Of a DNA stretch of 64,000 nt, positions 6,234 to 52,471 are shown piece by piece; within the stretch, counting starts at the first letter, position 1; every line of letters begins with the position of its first letter. The notes below the pieces were generated by a model, which searched no databases, had not been told where the DNA came from, and was given only the letters and a program-made list of their open reading frames with translations. Source of the stretch: Candidatus Woesearchaeota archaeon (GTDB lineage: Archaea; Nanobdellota; Nanobdellia; Woesearchaeales; UBA10216); the NCBI GenBank assembly GCA_016185705.1, contig JACPMZ010000007.1, positions 107,157 through 171,156 on the forward strand, in the 5' to 3' direction. A program made the position numbers and the translations under genes.

Positions 6234-6363
6234 TTGACAAGTTCACGCAGCCTCGCTCTGCTGCTGGCTTCCCTCCCTGCTTTTTCCCCCCCTTGAATAT
6301 TCAGGGGAGGGAAAAAGCAGGAAGAACGGCGGGATAAACGCAGCGGTAAAATGAACTTTTCAA
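6234..6363. mobile_element. MITE-like element family A, copy 1 (TIR TTGACAAGTTCAC ... ATGAACTTTTCAA; internal palindrome)
   Basis: Near-identical copy at 46328-46457 that has perfect 13-bp terminal inverted repeats; intergenic. Confidence 0.6.
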
Positions 6364-6382: not shown

Positions 6383-6522
6383 AATTTCAAGTTAAGTGGC
6401 AAAACCGTCGCATCCTTCCCTGATTTTTTTCTCCCCCCCTTAAAAAATAAGGGGGGAGAAAAAAATCAGCCAAGCAGGCATCGGCAAGCTCAGGATTGCA
6501 GGACACACAACTTGATATTACC
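6383..6522. mobile_element. Repeat element family B, copy 1 (contains palindrome CTGATTTTTTTCTCCCCCCC-TTAAAAAATAA-GGGGGGAGAAAAAAATCAG)
   Basis: Copies at 11585-11688 (same orientation) and 41752-41893 (reverse orientation). Confidence 0.6.
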
Positions 6523-9505: not shown

Positions 9506-10077
9506 TTCTTCTGGTTTCTTTGCTTCTGTGATGTCTTTGAGTTTATCAAAGTGCGGCGTCGTTGAAAAGTTGCCTTCACCGCTGCTTTTATTCTGCCTGT
9601 CCTGATTTTCCCCTCCCTTGCTATTTAAGGGAGGGGAAAATCAGTAAGCAAGCCAGCAAAACAACCTGCGCACATGAACTTTTCAATATCGCCTGAGAAA
9701 TAGCTGTGCAAACCACCAAAATTATATATCACTGCACATTCACAACGGCAAGGACACCGGTACGTTGGCAGAGCAGCACCGCGGCTCCTTTCGGGGAGTA
9801 GGCAGCTTTGCCCGCACCGTCCAAACATCACTGCCGTCAGCTTATTTGAGTTCTCTTCATGCCTGCTTTATTTCTCCCTTAACCTTGCAGTATCTCCGCA
9901 ACTGGCGTTTTTCCTGCGCAGTTCGGAGAAAACCAAGAGCTGCTGCAGGCAGAGGTGCTGTAAAAAGCAAGTGACGGGAAAGCGGGCATGGTGAAGGCAT
10001 AGAGGCAGCACACGCAAAACTTTAAATATAGCTGAATACAGTTTCTACTGCAATCATTTGGGGCAAAGAGGTGCAAC

Positions 10078-12965: not shown

Positions 12966-14255
12966 ATGCCAGAATTTATGAGTGTTATCCCAGTAACCAT
13001 TAAGGAAATGCAACGAGATTCTACATGGGACTTTGCTACTGCTGATACTAAGGAATTTACTCATTGCTTCCATTCTTATCCTGCCATGATGATTCCACAA
13101 GTTGCTAGAAAAATGCTGAAAATTTATGGGAAACAGGATAGCTCACTCATTGACCCTTTTATGGGTAGCGGCTCGGTTCTTGTTGAAGGGATGCTACACG
13201 AACCTATCACTAGCGCTTATGGATTAGATATAAATCCTTTGGCTATTTTAATAGCAAAAACTAAAACTACACCAATCAAACCGCAACTTTTGGAAAACAC
13301 GTTTTCTAAAATTTTGTCTGAATTTGATAAAAAAAAGAACACTGATCTTGGTTTCTATAATCTAACTAACATTAAATACTGGTTTAAAGAGCAAGCTATT
13401 AATGACTTATCCAGACTTAAAAGTTCAATTGATGAGGTAGATAACGGCAAGATTAAAAATTTCTTTCTGGTTTGTTTTTCAGAAACAACTCGTAAAGTAT
13501 CAAATACCCGTCCAGGTGAATTCAAGCTATACCGGATTAATGAAAAGAAGTTAGCCAATTATTTGCCAAATACCCTTGAGGTATTTACCCATGTTGTTAA
13601 GCGCAATATCAAAGGTATGCACTCATTTTATAGCGCATTCAACTATTTAGACAAAAAAACTGCCATAAATATTTACAAGGAAGACAGCCGAACAAAGACG
13701 TCAATCCCTTCGGAATCTTGTGACATTTTGGTGACTTCACCACCATACGGAGATTCAAGAACCACTGTAGCTTATGGGCAGTACAGCAGATTAAGCTCGC
13801 AATTATTGGGATATTCTTATGACGAAATAAGGCGGGTGGACCAGAACGGTTTAGGAGGAAAGCGCTCATATAAAGAAAACAATCTTGATTCGCCGCACCT
13901 GCAATCTGCATTGGATAAAATATCTGCGGCTGATGAAATTCGTGCTTTAGATGTGCTTGCTTTTTATGAAGATTTCAATAAGTGCATAACCGAAATAGAT
14001 CGTATTATGAAACCTAATTCACATCTTTGTTTTGTTGTCGGCAACAGAACTGTCAAAGGAGTAAAAATCCTAACTAACGCCATAATCGCAGAATTGTTTG
14101 AGTCTAGAGAAAACTATTCTCATTTGAAAACGATAATCAGAAAAATACCAAATAAGAAAATGCCTAAAATCAATAGTCCAACTAACGTAAAAGGCGTTAC
14201 AGGGCAAACAATGGATGAAGAATACCTCCTAATTCTTAAAAAGCTTAATTGCTAA
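12966..14255 (+). CDS. DNA methyltransferase of a type II R-M system, probably N4-cytosine-specific (motif I DPFMGSGS, motif IV TSPPYGD)
   Basis: FxGxG before SPPY with about 170 aa between them (alpha-class order); strong SD TAAGGAGGT; low-GC island. Confidence 0.8.
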   Translation: MPEFMSVIPVTIKEMQRDSTWDFATADTKEFTHCFHSYPAMMIPQVARKMLKIYGKQDSSLIDPFMGSGSVLVEGMLHEPITSAYGLDINPLAILIAKTKTTPIKPQLLENTFSKILSEFDKKKNTDLGFYNLTNIKYWFKEQAINDLSRLKSSIDEVDNGKIKNFFLVCFSETTRKVSNTRPGEFKLYRINEKKLANYLPNTLEVFTHVVKRNIKGMHSFYSAFNYLDKKTAINIYKEDSRTKTSIPSESCDILVTSPPYGDSRTTVAYGQYSRLSSQLLGYSYDEIRRVDQNGLGGKRSYKENNLDSPHLQSALDKISAADEIRALDVLAFYEDFNKCITEIDRIMKPNSHLCFVVGNRTVKGVKILTNAIIAELFESRENYSHLKTIIRKIPNKKMPKINSPTNVKGVTGQTMDEEYLLILKKLNC

Positions 14256-14537
14256 GACGGGCTGTGTTGAAAACCTCGCTTCCAGTAACTTTGCCAGTCC
14301 GCTGCCTTTTCATCTTCCCCTAATTTTTAAGGGGAGATGAAAAGGCAGCGGTTGAAAATGTAAGAATCGTGGAAGCGATATGTCACATTTTCAACAGAGT
14401 CTGATAAGACGGTACTTACTCAACTGAACTTTTATCCTCAGCGCATATATCCACCCTCCCTTAACTTTCGTAGGGAGGAGGAAATAGAGCGCAGTTGTGA
14501 GCAAGCGAAGTTGAGCAATGCAGGTACTATAAGAAAA

Positions 14538-15245
14538 CTACATTATCTGTTTTCTATGGCTGAAGCATAATTCCAACTTATCTGGAAGCACTCTAAATGC
14601 GGTGCCGTGATCGTGCGTTCTTCCGTTAGAATACTGGCCAATTCTGATATCAACCATTATTGTCCCTTCTTTCAGAAGGTTTAAAAAATTTTCAAAATCA
14701 AAGCCATTCAATAGCCAAGTTTCGTTAAACCAAAACATCTCTTGTTTACCGTCCCCGTTTACATCTGCTTTTACGTACATCAGTCTTGGAAGCTTTCGCT
14801 CAAAAGATTCTCTTAAAGTATTTTTGTCCCAATAACCAAATGATTTCCCATCTGGCGTCACTAGCTCTATTTTGTTGGTACTAATTTTAATCTTAAATCC
14901 TGGTTTGCCTTTCAAATTATTGAAATCAACAGCATTTACTGTTGAATGCAACTTCTTTTTGTTATTGCCTTTTGCAGATGGATAACCAAATTGTTTCAGC
15001 AACAAAGAATTAGCCTTTGGCGGCAAGGGAGATTTTGTAAACAGAGTAAGCAAGCTCTTAGTGTGCTTCCTAGTAGACTTAAGCTCAAGCATTAGACCAT
15101 TTGGGCCAGGCACATTATTTTCCTTTATTTTCAGTTCATCCTCCAAAGTTTTTCCAATACCAGTATTTCCAGCTCTATGCGTCTTAATATATCCCAAATC
15201 TTTAAGTCGCTTCAAATCCTGCACAAGCGCAGCATAACCGATCAT
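14538..15245 (-). CDS. Type II restriction endonuclease, MvaI/BcnI-like (from-memory resemblance)
   Basis: Convergent partner of the MTase; segments GNTGIGKTLEDELKIKENNV, LLTLFTKSP, HDHGTAFRV resemble BcnI/MvaI as recalled. Confidence 0.5.
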   Translation of the reverse strand: MIGYAALVQDLKRLKDLGYIKTHRAGNTGIGKTLEDELKIKENNVPGPNGLMLELKSTRKHTKSLLTLFTKSPLPPKANSLLLKQFGYPSAKGNNKKKLHSTVNAVDFNNLKGKPGFKIKISTNKIELVTPDGKSFGYWDKNTLRESFERKLPRLMYVKADVNGDGKQEMFWFNETWLLNGFDFENFLNLLKEGTIMVDIRIGQYSNGRTHDHGTAFRVLPDKLELCFSHRKQIM

Positions 15246-16193: not shown

Positions 16194-16295
16194 GCCCCTA
16201 TCGTTATGCAGAGGTATTTAAAGTTTTGTCCACTCCAAACACCCGATAACTTATACGTAAACATAACAAACTATTTAAACAATTCTTCAGCGCCT

Positions 16296-19200
16296 ATGCG
16301 TATGGCTGAGTTTCCACGCGAATACGATTTCAAAAAGATAGAGGAAGAGATGTCTGCTTTCTGGGATGCTGAAAAAATAGCTGAGGAAACGATAAAGCTG
16401 GATGAAAGCAGGCCGCTGTTTTCTTTCCTTGAGGGGCCGCCGACTGCCAATGCGCCTCCGGGGCTGCATCACGTGCAGAGCAGGTTTTACAAGGATTTGG
16501 TGTGCAGGTTCAACTACATGAAAGGGTTTTCTGTGCCGCGGAAGGGCGGGTGGGACTGCCACGGGCTGCCTGTTGAAGTGCAGGTTGAGAAAAAGCTCGG
16601 GCTGAAGACAAAAAAGGATGTTCTGAACTACGGAATAGGAAATTTCAATGAGCTGTGCAGGAAAGACGTTTTTACGTTCATCAAGGATTGGGACAAATTA
16701 ACAAAGCGGATGGCGTTCTGGATTGACATTGAAAACCCTTATGTTACGCTTACAAATGAATACATTGAAAGCGTATGGTGGAGTCTTAAGGAGCTGTACG
16801 GCAAAAAGCTGCTGTACGAGGACCACAAGGTTGTTCCTTACTGCCCGAGATGCGAGACGCCATTAAGCAGCCATGAAGTTGCATTGGGTTATAATGACGT
16901 AACAGAGGACACAATAACTACAAAATTCAAGCTTAAAGATGAAGACAGGTATTTGCTTGCCTGGACTACAACGCCGTGGACTACGCCGAGCAACATAGGG
17001 CTTGCTGTGGGGAAAGATATTGTTTACGTCGTTGTTGAGAAAGAGGGGGTTCAGTACATTCTTGCAAAGGCTGCCGCTGAACGATACTTTACAGAGCCGG
17101 TTATAATTCAGGAGATGGCAGGCGATGAGCTGGTTGGAAAAGAATATGTTCCGCTATTTGACTATTTTGTCGGAAAGCTGGACAAGCCTGCGTGGAGAAT
17201 AGTGGCAGCAGACTACGTTAACACAGAAGAAGGAACAGGCGTCGTGCACCAGGCGCCAGCATTTGGAGAGGAAGATTATGAAACAATAAAAAAGGAAGGG
17301 ATGGCTTTCGTGCAGCCAGTGGACCAAAGCGGCAGGTTCACGAAAGAGGTAAGCGATTTTGAAGGAATGTTTGTGAAGGACGCTGACCCTGAAATTATTG
17401 CAATGCTTGAGAAAAACAACGCGCTTTTCAGTAAAGAAAAGTACACGCACAGCTATCCGTTCTGCTGGCGATGCGACACGCCGCTGCTGTACTATGCGCT
17501 GAAGTCGTGGTTTGTGAAGGTAACTGCAGCCAAGGAACGGCTTATTGAGCTCAATCAGCAGATAAAATGGTATCCTGAGCACATAAGGGACGGCAGGTTT
17601 GGCGAATGGCTGCGAAACGTCAAAGACTGGGCACTAAGCAGGAACAAGTTCTGGGGAACGCCGCTGCCAATATGGAAATGCAGCTGCGGGAAAACTACAG
17701 CGATTGGCAGCAGGGAAGAGCTTGAGGCAGCGTCTGAACGGGATATAAAGGAGCTTGACCTCCATAAGCCGGCTATTGATGAAATAACCATTGACTGCAG
17801 CTGCGGAAAGAAAATGAATCGCGTTCCTTATGTTATTGACACGTGGTATGACTCGGGAGCTGCAGCCTTTGCGCAACTGCATTATCCGTTTGAGAACAAG
17901 GCGCTGTTCAGAAAACTTTTTCCGTACTCATTCATCACAGAGTCTATTGACCAGACCCGCGGCTGGTTTTACACGCTGCATGCACTGGGAACGCTGCTGT
18001 TTGACACATATGCGTACAAATCAGTCGTTGTCGGAGGCCTGCTTGTTGATGAGAAAGGCGAGAAGATGAGCAAAAGCAAAGGCAACACCCTAAACCCGTT
18101 TGATGTTTTTGATAAAATTGGCGTAGATGCTGTGCGGCTGCAGCTGTGCAGCAGCTCTCCGGATAACACAAAGCGCTTTGGGTATGAGCTTGTCAAGGAA
18201 AATGTTTTTCCATTCATGACAACGCTTTGGAACGTGTGCGTTTTCGCCAACAACCGTGCGGGCAGCGAAGGCGTAACAAAACTAAGGGCAGAAGACAAAT
18301 GGCTTATTTCCAGGACGAACACTTTGCTGCAAAAATTCACGCAGGAATTCGAGGCAAACAACTACCACCGCTGCTATGAGGAGCTCAAGTGGTTTGTGGT
18401 AGAGGACTTATCAAGGTGGTATATACGGCTTGTCAGAGAGAGAACTGACGATGCAGTGAGCGACACGCTGAGTTATGCGATTGGAATAATTGCAAAGCTG
18501 CTGGCCCCGTATGCGCCGTACATGGCCGAATACATCTACCTCAAACTGGTGCGGGATGAGGCGAAGAGCGTGCACCACTGCGCATGGCCGCAGGTGGAGA
18601 AAATTGACGCTGACCTGGAGAAAAAAATGAGCACTGCAAGGGCAATAGGCCAAGCCATACTGTCATTAAGGGAAAAAATAAACCGCGGGATAAGATGGCC
18701 CATCAAGCAGGCGGTGATAGCCGCCGAGGACCAGCTGGCAGGCGAAGTGATTGCACAGCTGGGACCTCTAATCGTCCATCAGACCAATGTCAAGAAGCTG
18801 ACTGTGCAGAAAGAATTCACAGAGGCAAAAGTGAAAATCAAGCCGGACTACGCAAAGCTCGGCCCTGTCTACGGAGAGGCAACGCCGAAAATAATCGCGC
18901 ATTTTACAATGAAAGGCCACGATGCGATACTGAAAAGATTAGCTGAGGACGGACACTACGATATGGGCATAGACGGCAAACAGTACAGGCTTGAACGCGA
19001 CCACTTTATTTTCACAACAGAGCTTCCTGACAAGTACGACTCTGCGGATTTCGGCATGGGAGCCGTATACATAGACAAGGAGCTGACTCCGGAAATGGAA
19101 GCAGAAGGGCTTTCCAGAGAGCTCATCCGGCTGATACAGCAGTCCAGAAAAGAAAAAAGCCTGGAAAAAACAGACGCGGTCAGCATCATCGTGAGAGCTG

Positions 19201-25705: not shown

Positions 25706-25757
25706 CGCTCTATTTCCTCCTCCCTCGAAATTTTAAGGGAGGAGGAAATAGAGCGCC
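25706..25757. repeat. Perfect 52-bp palindromic hairpin (GCGCTCTATTTCCTCCTCCC-loop-GGGAGGAGGAAATAGAGCGC); right half repeated at 14467-14490
   Basis: Direct inspection; member of the intergenic GC-stem hairpin family. Confidence 0.7.
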
Positions 25758-37002: not shown

Positions 37003-37113
37003 TCCTTATTTTCTCCCTCCCCTGACTTTAGGGGAGAAAATAAAGAGCAATGAAGTGCGTTTTTGGATACGGACAGCGAAAGTTTTATATAAGCTCTTCC
37101 CCCTTTTTGCTGC

Positions 37114-38472: not shown

Positions 38473-38569
38473 TGCGGGGGACGTGATTCGAACACGCGCA
38501 ACCACTAAGGTACAGGATTGCTTCTGAAACTTAAGTCCTGCGCTTTTGACCAGACTCAGCCACCCCCGC
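38473..38569 (-). tRNA. tRNA-Leu (anticodon UAA) with putative 11-nt intron at canonical 37/38 position
   Basis: 7-bp acceptor GCGGGGG/CCCCCGC, 3-bp D-stem, anticodon stem CAGGA/TCCTG, long variable arm, T-arm GCGTG-TTCGAAT-CACGT. Confidence 0.6.
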
Positions 38570-38792
38570 ATAGCGGCATTGCTTCAGGCATTGTTTATAA
38601 ATTTTTGTGGTGTGTGAAGTCAGCTCCTCAAGTATCTGCCTTTATCCTGCCAACTCAAATTCCAATCCCCCAACTCAATTTCACGCTGCGCTGCTTTTTT
38701 TCCCTCCCCTAAAATTTAAGGGGAGGAAAAAAAGCAGCGGGGACCCTTACATTTGCGAAAGTCTAATAAGCCAGTGCAGTAATTGTGTGTGA

Positions 38793-39332
38793 ATGGCAGA
38801 TATTCTCGGCTGGGGCTCAGGGACTTTGATTGTTATTGCAGTCCGGCTTCTCGTGCCTTTAACAATATTCTGGAAACCGCTTCCTGGCGCAATACTGTCT
38901 GTGCTGGCAGACACTTTTGACGTGGTCCTGCTTACACTTATCGGCAGAGGCTTTTTCCCTGACTACACCAAATTTGACAAGGCGCTGGACTGGTACTTCA
39001 TGCTTTTTATGATGGTGAAGTCGTGGCAGTGGGAGCCGCTGGCAAAATGGACGGCTGCTGCACTGTTTGGCTGGCGAACAGCTGGAGTGGCACTGATTGA
39101 AGCAACAGGAACGCGGCAGCTTCTGTTTGTTTTTCCCAACCTTTTTATCCTGTGGTGGTTTTTCAACCAGATAAGGATGCAGTATGCGCCTAATTTTAAG
39201 CTTACACCCAAGCGCGTCATTGCTGCGCTGCTGATACTGCTCATTCCAAAACTTGCCCAGGAATATTACCTGCACATTTTCCAAGCACAGCCCTGGACAT
39301 GGATTCAGGAGCACATTTTAAGAATTAAGTAG
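38793..39332 (+). CDS. Hypothetical membrane protein (Trp-rich, 4-5 TM)
   Basis: Hydrophobicity pattern. Confidence 0.5.
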   Translation: MADILGWGSGTLIVIAVRLLVPLTIFWKPLPGAILSVLADTFDVVLLTLIGRGFFPDYTKFDKALDWYFMLFMMVKSWQWEPLAKWTAAALFGWRTAGVALIEATGTRQLLFVFPNLFILWWFFNQIRMQYAPNFKLTPKRVIAALLILLIPKLAQEYYLHIFQAQPWTWIQEHILRIK

Positions 39333-39755
39333 CCGAATTTTATCTCCCTCAGCAATGCCGTAATGCTTTGTTAAGTTGCCGTTAATCTCCAGCACATACT
39401 TTACAGGAACGCCTGACTGGTATGTTGGGCACGGCTCTGCTGCGCATGGCGCGGCTTGATGAATTTTCCTGATAACAAACTTTTCATCAATAAATATGAT
39501 GTCCAGCGGAATCAAGGTGTTTTTCATCCAAAAACTTCGTTGGGCAGAGTCGGGGAATACGAAAAGCATACCCCTGTCAGCTGCAAGCGATTCGCGGAAC
39601 ATCAAGCCCTGCCTGAACTCTTCCTGCGTTTTGGGCAGCTCAACTTCAAATTCGTAGCTGTTGATTGATACAATTGCTGTGTTATCAGATGCAGAACTAT
39701 TACTTGTGCAGCTAACAGTTGTTATAAGCAGTAACAGCAGCAAAAGCCTTGGCAT
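39318..39755 (-). CDS. DUF192-family secreted protein
   Basis: Signal peptide MPRLLLLLLLITTVSC, GLMFRESL...GMLFVF...FWMKNTLIPLDIIFID motifs. Confidence 0.65.
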   Translation of the reverse strand: MPRLLLLLLLITTVSCTSNSSASDNTAIVSINSYEFEVELPKTQEEFRQGLMFRESLAADRGMLFVFPDSAQRSFWMKNTLIPLDIIFIDEKFVIRKIHQAAPCAAEPCPTYQSGVPVKYVLEINGNLTKHYGIAEGDKIRLLNS

Positions 39756-39810
39756 CCCAACACAATTTATGGCAATATTTAAAAACAATTCTAAACCTTT
39801 GCATTGAAAT

Positions 39811-39893
39811 GCCTCTGTAGCTCAGTGGTGGAGCGTTACCTTGGTATCCATACAAAAAGGTAGAGGTCGCGGGTCCAATTCCCGCCAGAGGCT
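39811..39893 (+). tRNA. tRNA-Thr (anticodon GGU) with putative 11-nt intron at 37/38
   Basis: Acceptor GCCTCTG/CAGAGGC, D-arm GCTC-AGTGGTG-GAGC, anticodon stem TTACC/GGTAG, T-arm GCGGG-TCCAATT-CCCGC. Confidence 0.6.
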
Positions 39894-40013
39894 TTACATA
39901 CAAAAACATTATTTACAATATTGTACATTTTTTAGCTGACAACTACTGTAAAATTAATAATTTATTTTTGGCTGTTCTTTTTACAAAGGTTTATAAGTTT
40001 CCTGTTCCAGTAA

Positions 40014-40811
40014 TTGCTTATGAAGCTTTTTTTGCTGCTGATGGCTGCACTTGTTGCTGCTGCGTGCCAGGTTCCTCAGCAAACAGCGCCGCCCGGGACT
40101 GACACTGCTCCTGCAGCGCAGCCGACTGAGCAGGAGCAGACTGTGCAGCGCGAACAGGATGAGGCTGATGACGTCACTGTGCCTGAGCCTGAAGTTTCCA
40201 AGCAGCCAGATTTTCAGTATCCCTTTTTAGGCAGCAGCCCAGTAAGCATAGTAATCTATGGAGATTATGCATCCGGCACTGATACTCAAGTGAATAATTT
40301 CCAGGTTGCTGCGCTGGAAAGGGACTATGTTAAAAGCAATAAGGCGAAGATTGTGTTTAAGCCTTATCCGCTGGGAGGGGATGATTCGTGGCGGGCAGCA
40401 CGCGCATCCTTATGCATGTGGGAGCAGGGCAGCAAGCAGTTCTGGAACTACCACGATGTTCTTCACACCTTTTACCTGCGCCTTGACGAGGAATCGCTGA
40501 ACAATTATGCAGGAAGGGTTCCAAATGCAGACAAGGAAAAGTTTGCTGAGTGCCTTGCTTCAGAAAAATATAAAGACGTGATAATAGCGACTCGGGCATA
40601 CGGGGACTCAATCGGCATAGGCAAGACACCAAGCTTTGTTATTGGCGAAGAAACAATAATAGCTGACGTCAACGTGCCTTACAAAACTTTTAAGGATGCT
40701 GTGGACAAAGAATTGAAGCCAGACCAAAACCTTTTCACCGGCTCTGTTGTCTTCAACGCTGTATCTGCTACGAGAAGCCTTGTCGGCTGGCTTCTGGGAC
40801 AGTTCTCATGA
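40014..40811 (+). CDS. DsbA/thioredoxin-fold lipoprotein lacking the CxxC active site
   Basis: Lipobox LVAAAC; Thr/Pro/Gln-rich linker; DsbA-like core but YASG in place of CxxC. Confidence 0.5.
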   Translation: MLMKLFLLLMAALVAAACQVPQQTAPPGTDTAPAAQPTEQEQTVQREQDEADDVTVPEPEVSKQPDFQYPFLGSSPVSIVIYGDYASGTDTQVNNFQVAALERDYVKSNKAKIVFKPYPLGGDDSWRAARASLCMWEQGSKQFWNYHDVLHTFYLRLDEESLNNYAGRVPNADKEKFAECLASEKYKDVIIATRAYGDSIGIGKTPSFVIGEETIIADVNVPYKTFKDAVDKELKPDQNLFTGSVVFNAVSATRSLVGWLLGQFS

Positions 40812-41134
40812 ATTTTATAATTGGCGCTTTTACCGCTTGCATCCCCCCTTAATGTTCAGGTGTAGATGAAAGGGCAGCGGATTTGCGGCTGGTGTTTTGC
40901 TTGGCTTGTTTCCTGATTTTCCCCTCTCTCAATATTTAGGGAAGGTAAAAACAGGGCAGCTTGGAATTAGTTTCGAAGGCAACTTTTCAATTATGCAGTT
41001 TATTTTGTGCTGTTTTGAAAATCTTACCTTCAGGCGCCCATGAACTTTTCATCGCTTCATGACCAAAATAAACGATAGATTTAAATAGTGAAATATGCAA
41101 TACCCCTCCTAATTACAAAAAGAGGTGTTTTATA

Positions 41135-41551
41135 ATGGCTAAAAAGAGGAAAGTTCCTGTTGTAAAGAAGAATGGCCTTGTTCCGCAAAGAGGAGGCGGA
41201 GGAATAAATCCGGGCTCATTTGGAAGTTTGGCATTCCTGTTTGGAGCGGTTATAGCAATAATTGCAGGACTTGTCAGCCCAACGTCGCCCAACCCTGTCC
41301 TGACATCACTCTTAATATCGCTTGGTATCGTTGTCGGCCTGCTCAACATAACAACGAAAGAAACAAGTCTGTTCATCCTGTCAACAGTGTCGCTGGTCAT
41401 TGTATCAGCGCTTGGCGGTGCAGTGCTTGGCCAAGTAGCGTTTGTCGGCCAGTACCTTGAGGGAATATTAAGGTCAATACTGACCTTCGTCATCCCGGCA
41501 ACCATAATAGTTGCATTGAAAACCGTAGCTGCGCTTGCTGAGAACAAATAA
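41135..41551 (+). CDS. Small membrane protein (138 aa)
   Basis: Basic N-terminus then 3 TM segments; followed by long T-tracts (terminator-like). Confidence 0.45.
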   Translation: MAKKRKVPVVKKNGLVPQRGGGGINPGSFGSLAFLFGAVIAIIAGLVSPTSPNPVLTSLLISLGIVVGLLNITTKETSLFILSTVSLVIVSALGGAVLGQVAFVGQYLEGILRSILTFVIPATIIVALKTVAALAENK

Positions 41552-41751
41552 TTTTTTTTGTTTTATCTTTTTTTTCTTAAATTTTTTTTATAATTTTTTT
41601 CTGCTCTGCCTTATTGTTCACTGCGGTGGTGGCGGCAGTTAGCGAAGATGCAGCAGGTTAGCGTCTTTGCACCTGCTATTATCGCTGCTGCGGAATGCCG
41701 GATGCCTGAAATTTTTAATAACGCCCGATAACTTAAAAATACGAAAGTCCC

Positions 41752-41893
41752 GGGTAATGTCAAGTTGTGTGTCCTGCAATCCTGAGCTTGCCGATGCCTG
41801 CTTGGCTGATTTTTTTCTCCCCCCTTATTTTTTAAGGGGGGGAGAAAAAAATCAGGGAAGGATGCGACGGTTTTGCCACTTAACTTGAAATTA
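41752..41893. mobile_element. Repeat element family B, copy 3 (reverse orientation, full length)
   Basis: Reverse complement of 6383-6522; ends 12 bp before a tRNA gene. Confidence 0.6.
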
Positions 41894-41905
41894 TTCTTGC
41901 TGACA

Positions 41906-41990
41906 GGGCCTGTGATCTAGCGGCTATGATGCTTCCTTGACTTGGAAGATGTCCCCAGTTCGAAACAAAGCGAGAGTCTGGGCGGGCCCA
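41906..41990 (+). tRNA. tRNA-Val (anticodon GAC)-like gene with 12-nt insertion after T-loop position 60
   Basis: Acceptor GGGCCTG/CGGGCCC, anticodon stem CTTCC/GGAAG, loop TTGACTT (U37 unusual), T-stem CCCAG/CTGGG split by CAAAGCGAGAGT. Confidence 0.4.
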
Positions 41991-44572: not shown

Positions 44573-44809
44573 GAAAACACACCAACGCGGCAATATATAA
44601 ATTTTTTTGGCAATTCAGCATAATAAGATCGCTTTTGTAATATCTATTCTTTACCTCGCACAATAGCGCTGCTTTTTTCCCTCCCCTTAAAATTTAGGGG
44701 AGGGAAAAAAAGCAGCGGTTATCAGCGCAAAGAGGACAGCAGCGTGAATCATTGGCAGGGGAATCAAATACCCAAAAGCTTTATATTTGCATAAAACGCT
44801 TATTAAGGC

Positions 44810-49124: not shown

Positions 49125-49410
49125 GCAGGCCCTTGTATTTAAGCCGGGTTGCCTTTATGTGGCCACAAAGCACGGGCTTGACTTTCAAAGACCACGCCCA
49201 AACACGGACGTGACTTTGAAAGGTTACGCCGGGACTGGGACATACTCACTGCGGTTCGTAGCCCCAGTCCCGGCTCTGTTCGCTTCGCTCACTACGCCGG
49301 GACTGGGACTTTCATTGACTCTGATGTTGTTCAGCCAGTCTTTTTTGAACCCAGACACCCTTAACGGGAACAGCCTCACTTGATTGTTCCAGGGCTGCGC
49401 GATGCCAGAT
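49125..49410 (-). ncRNA. Candidate structured ncRNA; carries RNase P RNA-like motifs GAAAGUCC (5' region) and AACCCGGCUUA (3' region)
   Basis: GC-rich, ORF-poor, 12-bp hairpins, 17-nt direct repeat; motif order and strand fit RNase P RNA P4 strands but the fold is not confirmed. Confidence 0.25.
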
Positions 49411-49760
49411 TACGCGATCCCGGCACAGGCATAAGCTGTTTGGCAGTTTATTTAAATGTGATGATTTGGGCGGGGTTGTTGCGAAAACAGCTTTTCATGC
49501 CCGCTGCTGTTCACTTTATCCAAACTTCTTTTATTTCTCACAGCGATAATTAGGGGGAGAAGAAAAGAAGCTGAACTAAGCTTTGGCACAATTGACCTAT
49601 AGGAAATAACCTTAATTTTCGTATGTTTTGAAATGATTGCAAGGTTATTTCCTAATAAGCAAATCACCTATTCGTTAGGAACAAAATTCCGATTATTAAA
49701 GTGATTTGCTATAATTACGCAACAACCCCTATTCGTATAATGAAAAAATGTTCCAATAAA

Positions 49761-52305: not shown

Positions 52306-52471
52306 GCCGGCGTTGGATAGTTTGGTAAGCCGCTGAGTTAAGAGCTCAGTGCCTGTAAAGGCTCCGGGGTTCAAATACTTTTCGGTTTTGCCGCTGGGTT
52401 GGAATTGTCAGAAATCAAAGATTTCTGAACATGGTCAGGAATCTTCGATTCCAGACATCCCCTCGCCGGCG
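52306..52471 (+). ncRNA. tRNA-like element (type II, Leu/Ser-like) with about 86-nt insertion after T-loop position 60
   Basis: Perfect 7-bp terminal pairing GCCGGCG/CGCCGGC, anticodon-like hairpin CTGAG-TTAAGAG-CTCAG, variable-arm hairpin GCCT-GTAA-AGGC, GGGG-TTCAAAT T-arm half. Confidence 0.3.

What the first reader, a model, noticed from the sequence alone, without database searches (positions are those of the whole stretch)
38473..41990. tRNA genes with minimal 11-nt anticodon-loop introns and a T-loop insertion
tRNA-Leu(UAA) (38473-38569, minus) and tRNA-Thr(GGU) (39811-39893) both fold canonically only if an 11-nt insert immediately 3' of position 37 is removed (TTTCAGAAGCA and TCCATACAAAA). 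tRNA-Val(GAC)-like (41906-41990) needs removal of a 12-nt insert (CAAAGCGAGAGT) between T-loop position 60 and the 3' T-stem, and it has U37. Such short introns and non-canonical positions are known from reduced archaeal lineages, but they imply a relaxed-specificity splicing endonuclease.
Basis: partly seen in the sequence, partly recalled or inferred. Interest (0 to 1): 0.5.

Follow-up and report, generated by a model that had tools for sequence, protein, structure and literature searches.

The report
Tiny introns interrupting archaeal tRNA genes
Three transfer-RNA genes of an uncultured Woesearchaeota archaeon each carry a real 11-12-base intron of a known relaxed archaeal type; this matters mainly because such genes escape standard tRNA finders.

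Summary
tRNA-Leu(UAA) (38473-38569, minus) and tRNA-Thr(GGU) (39811-39893) each carry an 11-nt insert between positions 37 and 38. tRNA-Val(GAC) (41906-41990) carries a 12-nt insert in the T loop. Orthologous genes in other Woesearchaeota have the same exons but inserts of different sequence and length, or none. After in-silico splicing, 16 Val orthologs pair in 100% of stem cells, and 14 of 20 pairs show compensatory changes. The last six intron bases follow the archaeal rule: four pair with loop positions 32-35 (or 54-57) and two lie in a 3-nt bulge. The 5' cut falls in a terminal loop, so these are bulge-helix-loop (relaxed BHB) introns. A close precedent exists: a 13-nt 59/60 intron in ARMAN-2 that is cleaved in vitro. 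This is therefore a new member of a known kind. The window holds no splicing endonuclease gene, so its type could not be checked. I also found two further interrupted tRNA genes that all tools missed: Ser(GGA), and a Ser-like class II tRNA with a Leu anticodon (AAG). At least five tRNA genes lie in the window, and all five are interrupted.

The parts
38473..38569 (-). tRNA-Leu(UAA) gene, 97 nt, class II, A73. Exon 1 is 38530-38569 and exon 2 is 38473-38518.
   Evidence: Rfam tRNA 48.9 bits. Own Leu model R3 98.7 bits. ARAGORN calls Leu(taa) after splicing. Orthologs are in L004 (13-nt intron) and L006/L048 (no intron).
38519..38529 (-). 11-nt intron TTTCAGAAGCA at 37/38 of tRNA-Leu. AAG (i7-i9) pairs with C32-U33-U34. 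The 3' bulge is C-A|A38. The 5' cut lies in a 9-nt loop (BHL).
   Evidence: the BHL fold is -3.3 kcal/mol, 0.1 above the minimum. (3 of 4 H pairs at register 0).
39811..39893 (+). tRNA-Thr(GGU) gene, 83 nt, U73. The T loop is TCCAATT, with an unusual C55.
   Evidence: Rfam 56.1 bits. Model R2 89.6 bits. ARAGORN calls Thr(ggt) after splicing. Orthologs carry 12-, 33-, 49- and 0-nt introns.
39847..39857 (+). 11-nt intron TCCATACAAAA at 37/38 of tRNA-Thr. CAA (i7-i9) pairs with U32-U33-G34. The 3' bulge is A-A|A38.
   Evidence: The same [A/U]CAA-NN| tail occurs in all five distinct Thr introns (11-49 nt).
41906..41990 (+). tRNA-Val(GAC) gene, 85 nt, with U37. Standard tRNA finders do not detect it.
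   Evidence: No Rfam or ARAGORN hit. ARAGORN calls Val(gac) after splicing. It is syntenic upstream of the AI-2E transporter gene in L004, L006, L010 and about 30 metagenome loci. Covariation is shown.
41965..41976 (+). 12-nt intron ACAAAGCGAGAG at 59/60 in the T loop of tRNA-Val. CGAG (i7-i10) pairs with U54-U55-C56-G57. The 3' bulge is A-G|U60. The 5' cut is 2 nt after the helix, in an 8-nt loop.
   Evidence: The RNAfold minimum-energy structure of the T arm plus insert is exactly this BHL (-8.3 kcal/mol). L004 has TTTTAGCGAGAA and L010 has TTTTTTTTACGAGAG: the 5' part varies while CGAG is kept.
49295..49424 (-). It has a 10-nt intron at 37/38 (49377-49386, CAATCAAGTG) and a 35-nt intron at 59/60 (49309-49343).
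   Evidence: Found by my own T-arm/acceptor scan. ARAGORN calls Ser(gga), 85 nt, after removing both inserts. An ortholog with different intron sequences is in L010.
52306..52471 (+). Additional gene: class II tRNA with anticodon AAG, G73 and an 82-nt insert at 59/60 (52376-52457).
   Evidence: The ortholog in L004 (about 16218-16332) has a 30-nt insert and compensatory changes in the acceptor, D and variable stems.

Best explanation
These are functional tRNA genes of a Woesearchaeota (DPANN) archaeon, interrupted by very short protein-spliced introns.

In the precursor, the four intron bases that lie 3-6 nt from the intron's 3' end pair with the first four loop bases of the host arm. These are positions 32-35 in the anticodon loop of Leu and Thr, and 54-57 in the T loop of Val. 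The pairing extends the arm by a 3-4-bp helix. The last two intron bases and the first base of the next exon are left as a 3-nt bulge, which carries the 3' splice site. The 5' splice site lies two bases beyond the helix, inside a 6-9-nt terminal loop. The introns are too short to form the inner helix and second bulge of a full bulge-helix-bulge motif. The structure is therefore a bulge-helix-loop (relaxed hBH) motif.

The archaeal splicing endonuclease EndA would cut at both sites, and an RtcB-type ligase would join the exons. The products would be canonical 86-nt Leu, 72-nt Thr and 73-nt Val tRNAs.

Shown here: the gene structure, the conserved helix and bulge register, variability and presence/absence of the introns among orthologs, and covariation of the spliced cloverleaf.

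Inferred from established knowledge: cleavage by EndA, ligation, and that the enzyme has broadened specificity.
For: 1. Removing the inserts restores canonical tRNAs that an independent predictor accepts. In one search the unspliced Thr and Val constructs give no call. The unspliced window Leu is still called, as the uninterrupted fold treated under the rival explanations.
2. Orthologs in other genomes keep the exons but change the insert.
   - Leu: 11, 13, 23, 26, 35 or 0 nt.
   - Thr: 11, 12, 33, 49 or 0 nt. L006 (33-nt intron) and L048 (no intron) have identical exons.
   - Val T loop: 12, 12, 15, 29, 46, 78 or 0 nt.
3. Register test on 30 distinct 37/38 introns of 10-49 nt from four tRNA species. 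Loop positions 32-35 pair with intron positions n-5..n-2 at a mean of 3.67 of 4 pairs, and 29 of 30 introns have at least 3 pairs. Registers shifted by 1 to 4 positions give 1.1-2.2 pairs. U33-A and C33-G covary.
4. In the T-loop introns, G57-C (Val) and A57-U (Ser) covary. This is my hand tabulation of sequences.
5. The minimum-energy fold of the Val T arm plus insert is the exact BHL, in both the window and L004.
6. Sixteen distinct Val orthologs spliced in silico pair in 100% of 320 stem cells. Fourteen of 20 pairs show changes on both sides. Slid controls give 29-52% pairing.
7. The host is archaeal: an FttA KH domain and other archaeal markers are present, and the closest genome is a Candidatus Woesearchaeota MAG.
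8. Precedent: a 13-nt hBH/BHL intron at 59/60 of ARMAN-2 pre-tRNA-Cys is cleaved in vitro (PMC3239211). DPANN alpha4 EndAs with an L3 loop correlate with disrupted tRNA genes (PMC5829648).
Against: - There are no RNA data, so splicing itself is not observed.
- No EndA or RtcB gene lies in the window, so the enzyme type is unknown.
- In Leu and Thr the central helix has only 3 pairs plus a purine-purine mismatch. The BHL fold is not clearly the thermodynamic optimum for these minihelices: -3.3 versus -3.4 kcal/mol for Leu, and not among the top folds shown for Thr.
- An alternative intron-internal hairpin competes in both Leu orthologs.
- My splicing script chose the intron boundaries by requiring stem pairing. 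This inflates the pairing percentage for the anticodon and T stems, though not for the acceptor and D stems.
Confidence: 0.9

Rival explanations
1. The inserts are not removed. The mature tRNAs carry enlarged anticodon or T loops, or, for Leu, the uninterrupted 99-nt fold proposed by ARAGORN.
For: ARAGORN returns an uninterrupted Leu(taa) fold for the window gene. It also returns uninterrupted Leu calls for the L004 and L025/L027 orthologs in genomic context.
Against: The uninterrupted Leu fold uses an anticodon stem with an A.A mismatch and a G.U pair, built from intron bases that differ in every ortholog. Intronless orthologs with the same exons exist for Leu, Thr and Val. Insert length ranges from 0 to 78 nt at the same site. 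An 18-19-nt anticodon or T loop would be incompatible with decoding and with the T-loop/D-loop core (established tRNA knowledge).
Confidence: 0.03
2. The genes are decaying pseudogenes and the inserts are random insertions.
For: The Val gene scores below threshold with every general tRNA detector. Val has an unusual U37 and Thr an unusual C55.
Against: All stems are intact after splicing, and compensatory changes are seen across 16 Val orthologs. The Leu-Thr-Val-transporter order is conserved down to 35% protein identity of the neighbouring gene. The inserts obey a precise structural register. My scans found no uninterrupted tRNA gene in the window.
Confidence: 0.03
3. The introns are placed differently: Thr is really 'Phe(AAA)' with an 11-nt intron at 32/33 as ARAGORN reports, or the Val insert sits at 60/61.
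For: ARAGORN -i reports tRNA-Phe(aaa) i(33,11) for 39811-39893. Removing CAAAGCGAGAGT also yields a tRNA-Val that ARAGORN accepts.
Against: - Thr: intronless orthologs read TTGGTAA with anticodon GGT. U73 and the G1-C72/C2-G71/C3-G70 pairs fit archaeal tRNA-Thr identity (my own knowledge of tRNA identity rules). An AAA anticodon with an intron at 32/33 has no support from the intronless orthologs, all of which read GGT.
- Val: T60 is nearly invariant in the 16 spliced orthologs (15 of 16 by my count of the alignment). Only 59/60 puts the 3' cut after the second base of a 3-nt bulge and the 5' cut 2 nt after the 4-bp helix.
Confidence: 0.05

Closest known systems
ARMAN-2 (Candidatus Micrarchaeum) pre-tRNA-Cys(GCA) intron: 13 nt, position 59/60, relaxed hBH/BHL motif (Fujishima et al. 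2011, PMC3239211)
   Same: It is in a DPANN archaeon. It occupies the same T-loop position (59/60) and has nearly the same length (13 versus 12 nt). It has the same architecture: an exon helix, a 3' bulge and a short helix, with the 5' site in a loop. Cleavage in vitro has been demonstrated for it.
   Different: The host phylum differs (Micrarchaeota versus Woesearchaeota), as does the tRNA species. The ARMAN-2 enzyme is the three-unit epsilon2 type. The enzyme of this lineage is unknown. Published surveys suggest an alpha4 type with an L3 loop in other DPANN, including one Woesearchaeota genome (PMC5829648).
Crenarchaeal and Thaumarchaeal BHL/HBh'/hBH introns (Aeropyrum pernix, Thermoproteales, Cenarchaeum; PMC3241643, PMC4090602)
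   Same: These are relaxed motifs that lack one bulge. They are very short: the A. pernix BHL introns are described as 5-7 nt. They occur at canonical and non-canonical positions, and many genes are disrupted per genome.
   Different: Those lineages use (alpha-beta)2 EndA with the Crenarchaea-specific loop. The organisms are phylogenetically distant and thermophilic.
Canonical hBHBh' archaeal tRNA introns at 37/38
   Same: The rule is the same: positions 32-35 pair with the intron, and a 3-nt 3' bulge is cut after its second base. Longer orthologous introns in relatives are perfect hBHBh', for example the 31-nt Val intron in L006.
   Different: The window's 10-12-nt introns have no inner helix h' and no 5' bulge. 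Strict-specificity alpha4 and alpha'2 enzymes are reported not to cut such substrates (PMC5829648).
11-bp anticodon-loop introns of Cyanidioschyzon merolae nuclear tRNA genes (PMC3728597)
   Same: The length is the same (11 bp), and the tRNA gene set is highly disrupted.
   Different: The host is a eukaryote with the eukaryotic endonuclease. There is no evolutionary link with this lineage.

Membership tests
Archaeal endonuclease-spliced (BHB-type) tRNA introns | The host is an archaeal tRNA gene that folds as a canonical cloverleaf only after the insert is removed. | tested here: met
   Archaeal marker genes are present. ARAGORN calls Leu, Thr and Val after in-silico splicing, and the unspliced Thr and Val are not called. 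Covariation of the spliced cloverleaf is shown.
Archaeal endonuclease-spliced (BHB-type) tRNA introns | The 3' splice site lies after the second base of a 3-nt bulge that abuts an exon-exon helix. | tested here: met
   The bulges are CA|A (Leu), AA|A (Thr) and AG|U (Val), each next to the anticodon or T stem.
Archaeal endonuclease-spliced (BHB-type) tRNA introns | A central 4-bp helix forms between loop bases of the 5' exon (32-35 or 54-57) and the intron's 3' segment. | tested here: met
   Val has 4 of 4 pairs, one of them G.U. Leu and Thr have 3 of 4 with a purine-purine mismatch at the loop end. Across 30 introns the mean is 3.67 of 4 pairs at the canonical register, against 1.1-2.2 at shifted registers.
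Strict hBHBh' subclass | A second 3-nt bulge carries the 5' splice site and is followed by an inner intron helix h'. | tested here: not met
   The 10-12-nt introns leave only a 6-9-nt terminal loop. They belong to the relaxed BHL/hBH subclass. Longer orthologous introns (L006 Val, L046 Val) do form h'.
Archaeal endonuclease-spliced (BHB-type) tRNA introns | The insert varies in sequence and length, or is absent, in orthologs whose exons are conserved. | tested here: met
   L006 and L048 Thr have identical exons, one with and one without a 33-nt intron.
Archaeal endonuclease-spliced (BHB-type) tRNA introns | The intron is excised by EndA and the exons are ligated by RtcB. The genome encodes an EndA of broad specificity. 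| not testable with these tools
   No tRNA_int_endo or RtcB domain was found among the 49 distinct window ORFs scanned. phmmer with M. jannaschii EndA (sequence verified against PDB 1a79) found nothing in 672 kb of held DNA.
Self-splicing group I / group II introns in tRNA genes | A catalytic RNA core of a couple of hundred nucleotides or more (my own knowledge of these intron classes). | tested here: not met
   The inserts are 10-82 nt. There is no Rfam intron hit in the window.

The most novel reading that the evidence does not exclude
This Woesearchaeota lineage may process a class of 10-12-nt bulge-helix-loop micro-introns. These have a helix of only 3 bp plus a mismatch, no inner helix, and they interrupt every tRNA gene found in 64 kb. 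The enzyme may be an alpha4-type EndA whose substrate range exceeds what has been shown biochemically for any alpha4 enzyme. If so, subunit architecture would be decoupled from substrate breadth. Large-scale 'missing tRNA' calls in DPANN genomes would then be an annotation artefact.
Probability: 0.25. Interest if true: 0.45.

Novelty: new member of a known kind. Interest (0 to 1): 0.3.

Why it matters
**Annotation.** In this window Rfam finds two of five tRNA genes. ARAGORN finds one by default and two with its intron option, and then miscalls Thr as Phe. Three genes were invisible because a short insert sits in the T loop. Published surveys already suspect unidentified disrupted tRNA genes in DPANN genomes (PMC5829648). 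This locus shows concretely what they look like in Woesearchaeota. It also gives a simple rule for finding them: the intron tail pairs with 32-35 or 54-57, and two bulged bases follow.

**Biology.** The set of orthologs (the same gene with 0-, 11-, 12-, 33- or 49-nt introns, and the same intron position shared by four tRNA species) documents rapid intron gain, loss and shrinkage in a reduced-genome archaeon. It also predicts an EndA with relaxed specificity in this lineage.

It does not reveal a new mechanism.

Tried and rejected
- **Rfam on the Val gene.** An Rfam search at E<=10 over 36-44 kb was run to see whether the Val gene is weakly detectable. It is not.
- **ARAGORN's alternative calls.** These were the uninterrupted Leu fold and Phe(AAA) with an intron at 32/33. 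Both were rejected on comparative grounds.
- **Search for EndA.** Pfam scans of 49 distinct ORFs, and phmmer with a verified M. jannaschii EndA against all held DNA, found nothing. The enzyme type stays open.
- **Codon reassignment.** The class II tRNA with anticodon AAG but Ser-like features suggested a CUU Leu-to-Ser reassignment. This was rejected. In IleRS, the 20 CTT codons align with Leu in 102 homologs of 48-60% identity. All 12 conserved columns are Leu, and the mean Ser fraction is 0.03.
- **Wider orthologs of the AAG tRNA.** I looked upstream of TctA homologs in four more distant relatives (L089-L092). No tRNA is present there, so the adjacency is confined to the window/L004 clade.
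- **Literature.** Marck & Grosjean 2003 (PMC1370505) is not held. No supplement is held for PMC5829648. I could not find a stated lower length limit for archaeal tRNA introns beyond the A. pernix remark in PMC3241643.
- **The 82-nt insert of the AAG tRNA.** I could not resolve its splice geometry. Its first 30 nt match the 30-nt intron of L004, and an extra 52 nt (two similar hairpins) follow. This may be a nested second intron.


Full report
**Observation**

The window is archaeal. It encodes an FttA/aCPSF1 with the archaeal KH domain, IleRS, ThrRS, a proteasome subunit, Kae1 and deoxyhypusine synthase. Its IleRS is 100% identical to an NCBI protein from a Candidatus Woesearchaeota MAG on a 250-kb contig.

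The Rfam tRNA model hits 39811-39893 (+, 56.1 bits) and 38473-38569 (-, 48.9 bits). In both alignments 13 nt occupy the place of 2 model positions at 37/38, which means an 11-nt insert. The third candidate, 41906-41990, is missed by Rfam even at E<=10 and by ARAGORN with or without its intron option.

After in-silico removal of the proposed inserts, ARAGORN returns canonical tRNA-Leu(taa), tRNA-Thr(ggt) and tRNA-Val(gac).

**Comparative evidence**

The gene downstream of tRNA-Val, an AI-2E family transporter, led to a Woesearchaeota MAG at 73% protein identity (L004) and a distant one at 35% (L006). Both keep the Leu, Thr, Val and transporter genes together; in L006 the three tRNA genes lie in that order directly upstream of the transporter.

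| tRNA | Window | L004 | L006 |
|---|---|---|---|
| Leu(UAA) | 11-nt intron | 13-nt intron | none; reads CAGGACUUAAGAUCCUG, exactly the predicted spliced arm |
| Thr(GGU) | 11-nt intron | 12-nt intron | 33-nt intron |
| Val(GAC), T loop | ACAAAGCGAGAG | TTTTAGCGAGAA | normal T loop, plus a perfect 31-nt hBHBh' intron at 37/38 |

L048 has Thr exons identical to L006 but no intron.

A scan of JGI metagenomes with an alignment of the transporter gave 80 loci. Covariance models built from the spliced sequences found about 30 distinct Val, 11 Thr and 7 Leu orthologs.
- Gene lengths run from 72 to 165 nt because of introns.
- Introns at 37/38 are 10-49 nt long.
- Introns at 59/60 are 12-82 nt long.
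- A few genes carry introns in the D region.

Sixteen distinct Val orthologs spliced in silico pair in 100% of 320 stem cells. Fourteen of 20 pairs show changes on both sides. Sliding the 3' partner by 1-3 columns gives only 29-52% pairing.

**Structure of the introns**

Literature rule: in archaeal pre-tRNAs the first two anticodon bases are part of a central 4-bp helix formed with the intron, and this helix is flanked by two 3-nt bulges that carry the splice sites (PMC4090602).

I tested this on 30 distinct 37/38 introns from four tRNA species. Positions 32-35 pair with intron positions n-5..n-2 at a mean of 3.67 of 4 pairs, and 29 of 30 introns have at least 3 pairs. Registers shifted by 1 to 4 positions give 1.1-2.2 pairs. 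U33-A covaries with C33-G.

The window's introns read as follows:
- **Leu:** C32-U33-U34 pair with A-A-G. A35.G is a mismatch. The bulge is CA|A38.
- **Thr:** U32-U33-G34 pair with C-A-A. G35.A is a mismatch. The bulge is AA|A38.
- **Val:** U54-U55-C56-G57 pair with C-G-A-G. The bulge is AG|U60. The 5' cut is two bases after the helix.

For Val, this is the RNAfold minimum-energy structure in both the window and L004. It fixes the intron at 59/60 (41965-41976) and gives the T loop UUCGAAU. T60 is nearly invariant in the spliced orthologs (15 of 16 by my count of the alignment).

None of the three introns is long enough for an inner helix, so the 5' site sits in a 6-9-nt loop. This is a bulge-helix-loop (relaxed hBH) motif. 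For Leu and Thr the thermodynamic support is weak: the BHL fold is 0.1 kcal/mol above the optimum for Leu, and a competing intron hairpin exists. The argument for those two therefore rests on the comparative register, not on energy.

**What is known**

A 13-nt intron at 59/60 forming a relaxed hBH/BHL motif occurs in ARMAN-2 pre-tRNA-Cys and is cut in vitro by its epsilon2 endonuclease (PMC3239211). BHL introns in Aeropyrum pernix are described as very short, 5-7 nt (PMC3241643).

Relaxed motifs are reported to need EndAs with an inserted specificity loop. DPANN lineages, including one Woesearchaeota genome, were reported to have alpha4 enzymes with an L3 loop and more disrupted tRNA genes. 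Undetected disrupted tRNAs were explicitly suspected there (PMC5829648).

In the held library, only two papers mention both Woesearchaeota and tRNA introns, and neither describes these introns. The finding is therefore a new member of a known kind, and 'minimal' is not a record.

A scan for T arms with an insert at 59/60, combined with acceptor pairing and ARAGORN, found two more genes.
- **tRNA-Ser(GGA), 49295-49424 (-).** It has a 10-nt intron at 37/38 and a 35-nt intron at 59/60. An ortholog lies in L010.
- **A class II tRNA with anticodon AAG, 52306-52471 (+).** It has an 82-nt insert at 59/60. The ortholog in L004 has a 30-nt insert and compensatory changes in three stems.

All five tRNA genes detected in the window are interrupted, by six introns in total.

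**The AAG tRNA**

This tRNA is odd. Its GCCGG acceptor start, G73 discriminator and variable-arm format (1 + 4 bp + tetraloop + 4 + 2) match the lineage's tRNA-Ser genes. They do not match tRNA-Leu(UAA), which has A73 and a conserved UUAGU variable loop.

I tested the obvious implication, that CUU is read as Ser. CTT codons of IleRS align with conserved Leu in 102 homologs (12 of 12 conserved columns), so the code is standard. ARMAN-4/-5 are reported to have tRNA-Leu(AAG) (PMC3239211). Who charges this tRNA remains open.

**Limits**

- No RNA data were available.
- No EndA or RtcB gene lies in the window or in any held locus.
- The intron boundaries used for the covariation count were chosen by a script that requires stem pairing.

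Noticed in passing
It has a 10-nt intron at 37/38 (49377-49386) and a 35-nt intron at 59/60 (49309-49343). An ortholog with different intron sequences is at L010 2375-2516.
   Followed up: yes
window 52306-52471 (+); L004 about 16218-16332: A class II tRNA with anticodon AAG (Leu codon CUU). It has a Ser-like acceptor stem (GCCGG...), a G73 discriminator and a Ser-like variable arm. An 82-nt insert (30 nt in L004) sits at 59/60. CUU is still Leu by codon-conservation analysis of IleRS, so the charging identity of this tRNA is unexplained.
   Followed up: partly
window 49227-49294 (-): The 14-nt 3' exon of tRNA-Ser (TCCCAGTCCCGGCG) is repeated exactly 54 nt downstream. An inverted copy (GCCGGGACTGGGG) lies between the two, so the region can form an acceptor/T-stem minihelix. 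It may be a recombination or integration scar, or an alternative 3' exon.
   Followed up: no
window 6281-6316, 6424-6465, 9606-9640, 25713-25748, 37009-37040, 38695-38733, 40905-40960, 41810-41851, 44673-44711: A family of hairpin elements of the form T-run, C-rich arm, AT loop, G-rich arm, A-run; most of the copies I checked lie between called ORFs. The copy upstream of tRNA-Val, with about 135 nt around it, is replaced by about 30 unrelated bases in an otherwise identical strain contig (L001). Two Logan contigs break inside the 38.7-kb copy. The elements could be bidirectional terminator-like or miniature mobile elements.
   Followed up: partly
window 39865-39871: tRNA-Thr has the T loop TCCAATT, that is C55 in place of the near-universal U55. 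The orthologs in L004 and L006 have TTCAAT. The strain contigs L001 and L002 share the C.
   Followed up: partly
window 41938-41944; L004, L010, L046: U37 in tRNA-Val(GAC) (loop TTGACTT) is shared with L004. It recurs in L046 (TTGACTC), and all three of these genes lack an anticodon-loop intron. The next relative, L010, also lacks that intron but has G37. Many more distant Val orthologs have C33 (loop TCGACA).
   Followed up: partly
window 12966-15245: A restriction-modification pair: a DNA methylase at 12966-14255 and an MvaI/BcnI-family endonuclease at 14538-15245. It sits in the lowest-GC stretch of the window (0.40 against about 0.47) and is probably horizontally acquired.
   Followed up: no
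L006 3729-3871 (-): A tRNA (the anticodon loop reads CTCCTAA, apparently Arg-CCU) with a 71-nt intron at 37/38. The intron contains C-box-like (TGATGA) and D-box-like (CTGA) motifs, which is reminiscent of the intron-encoded C/D box guide RNAs of archaeal tRNA-Trp.
   Followed up: no
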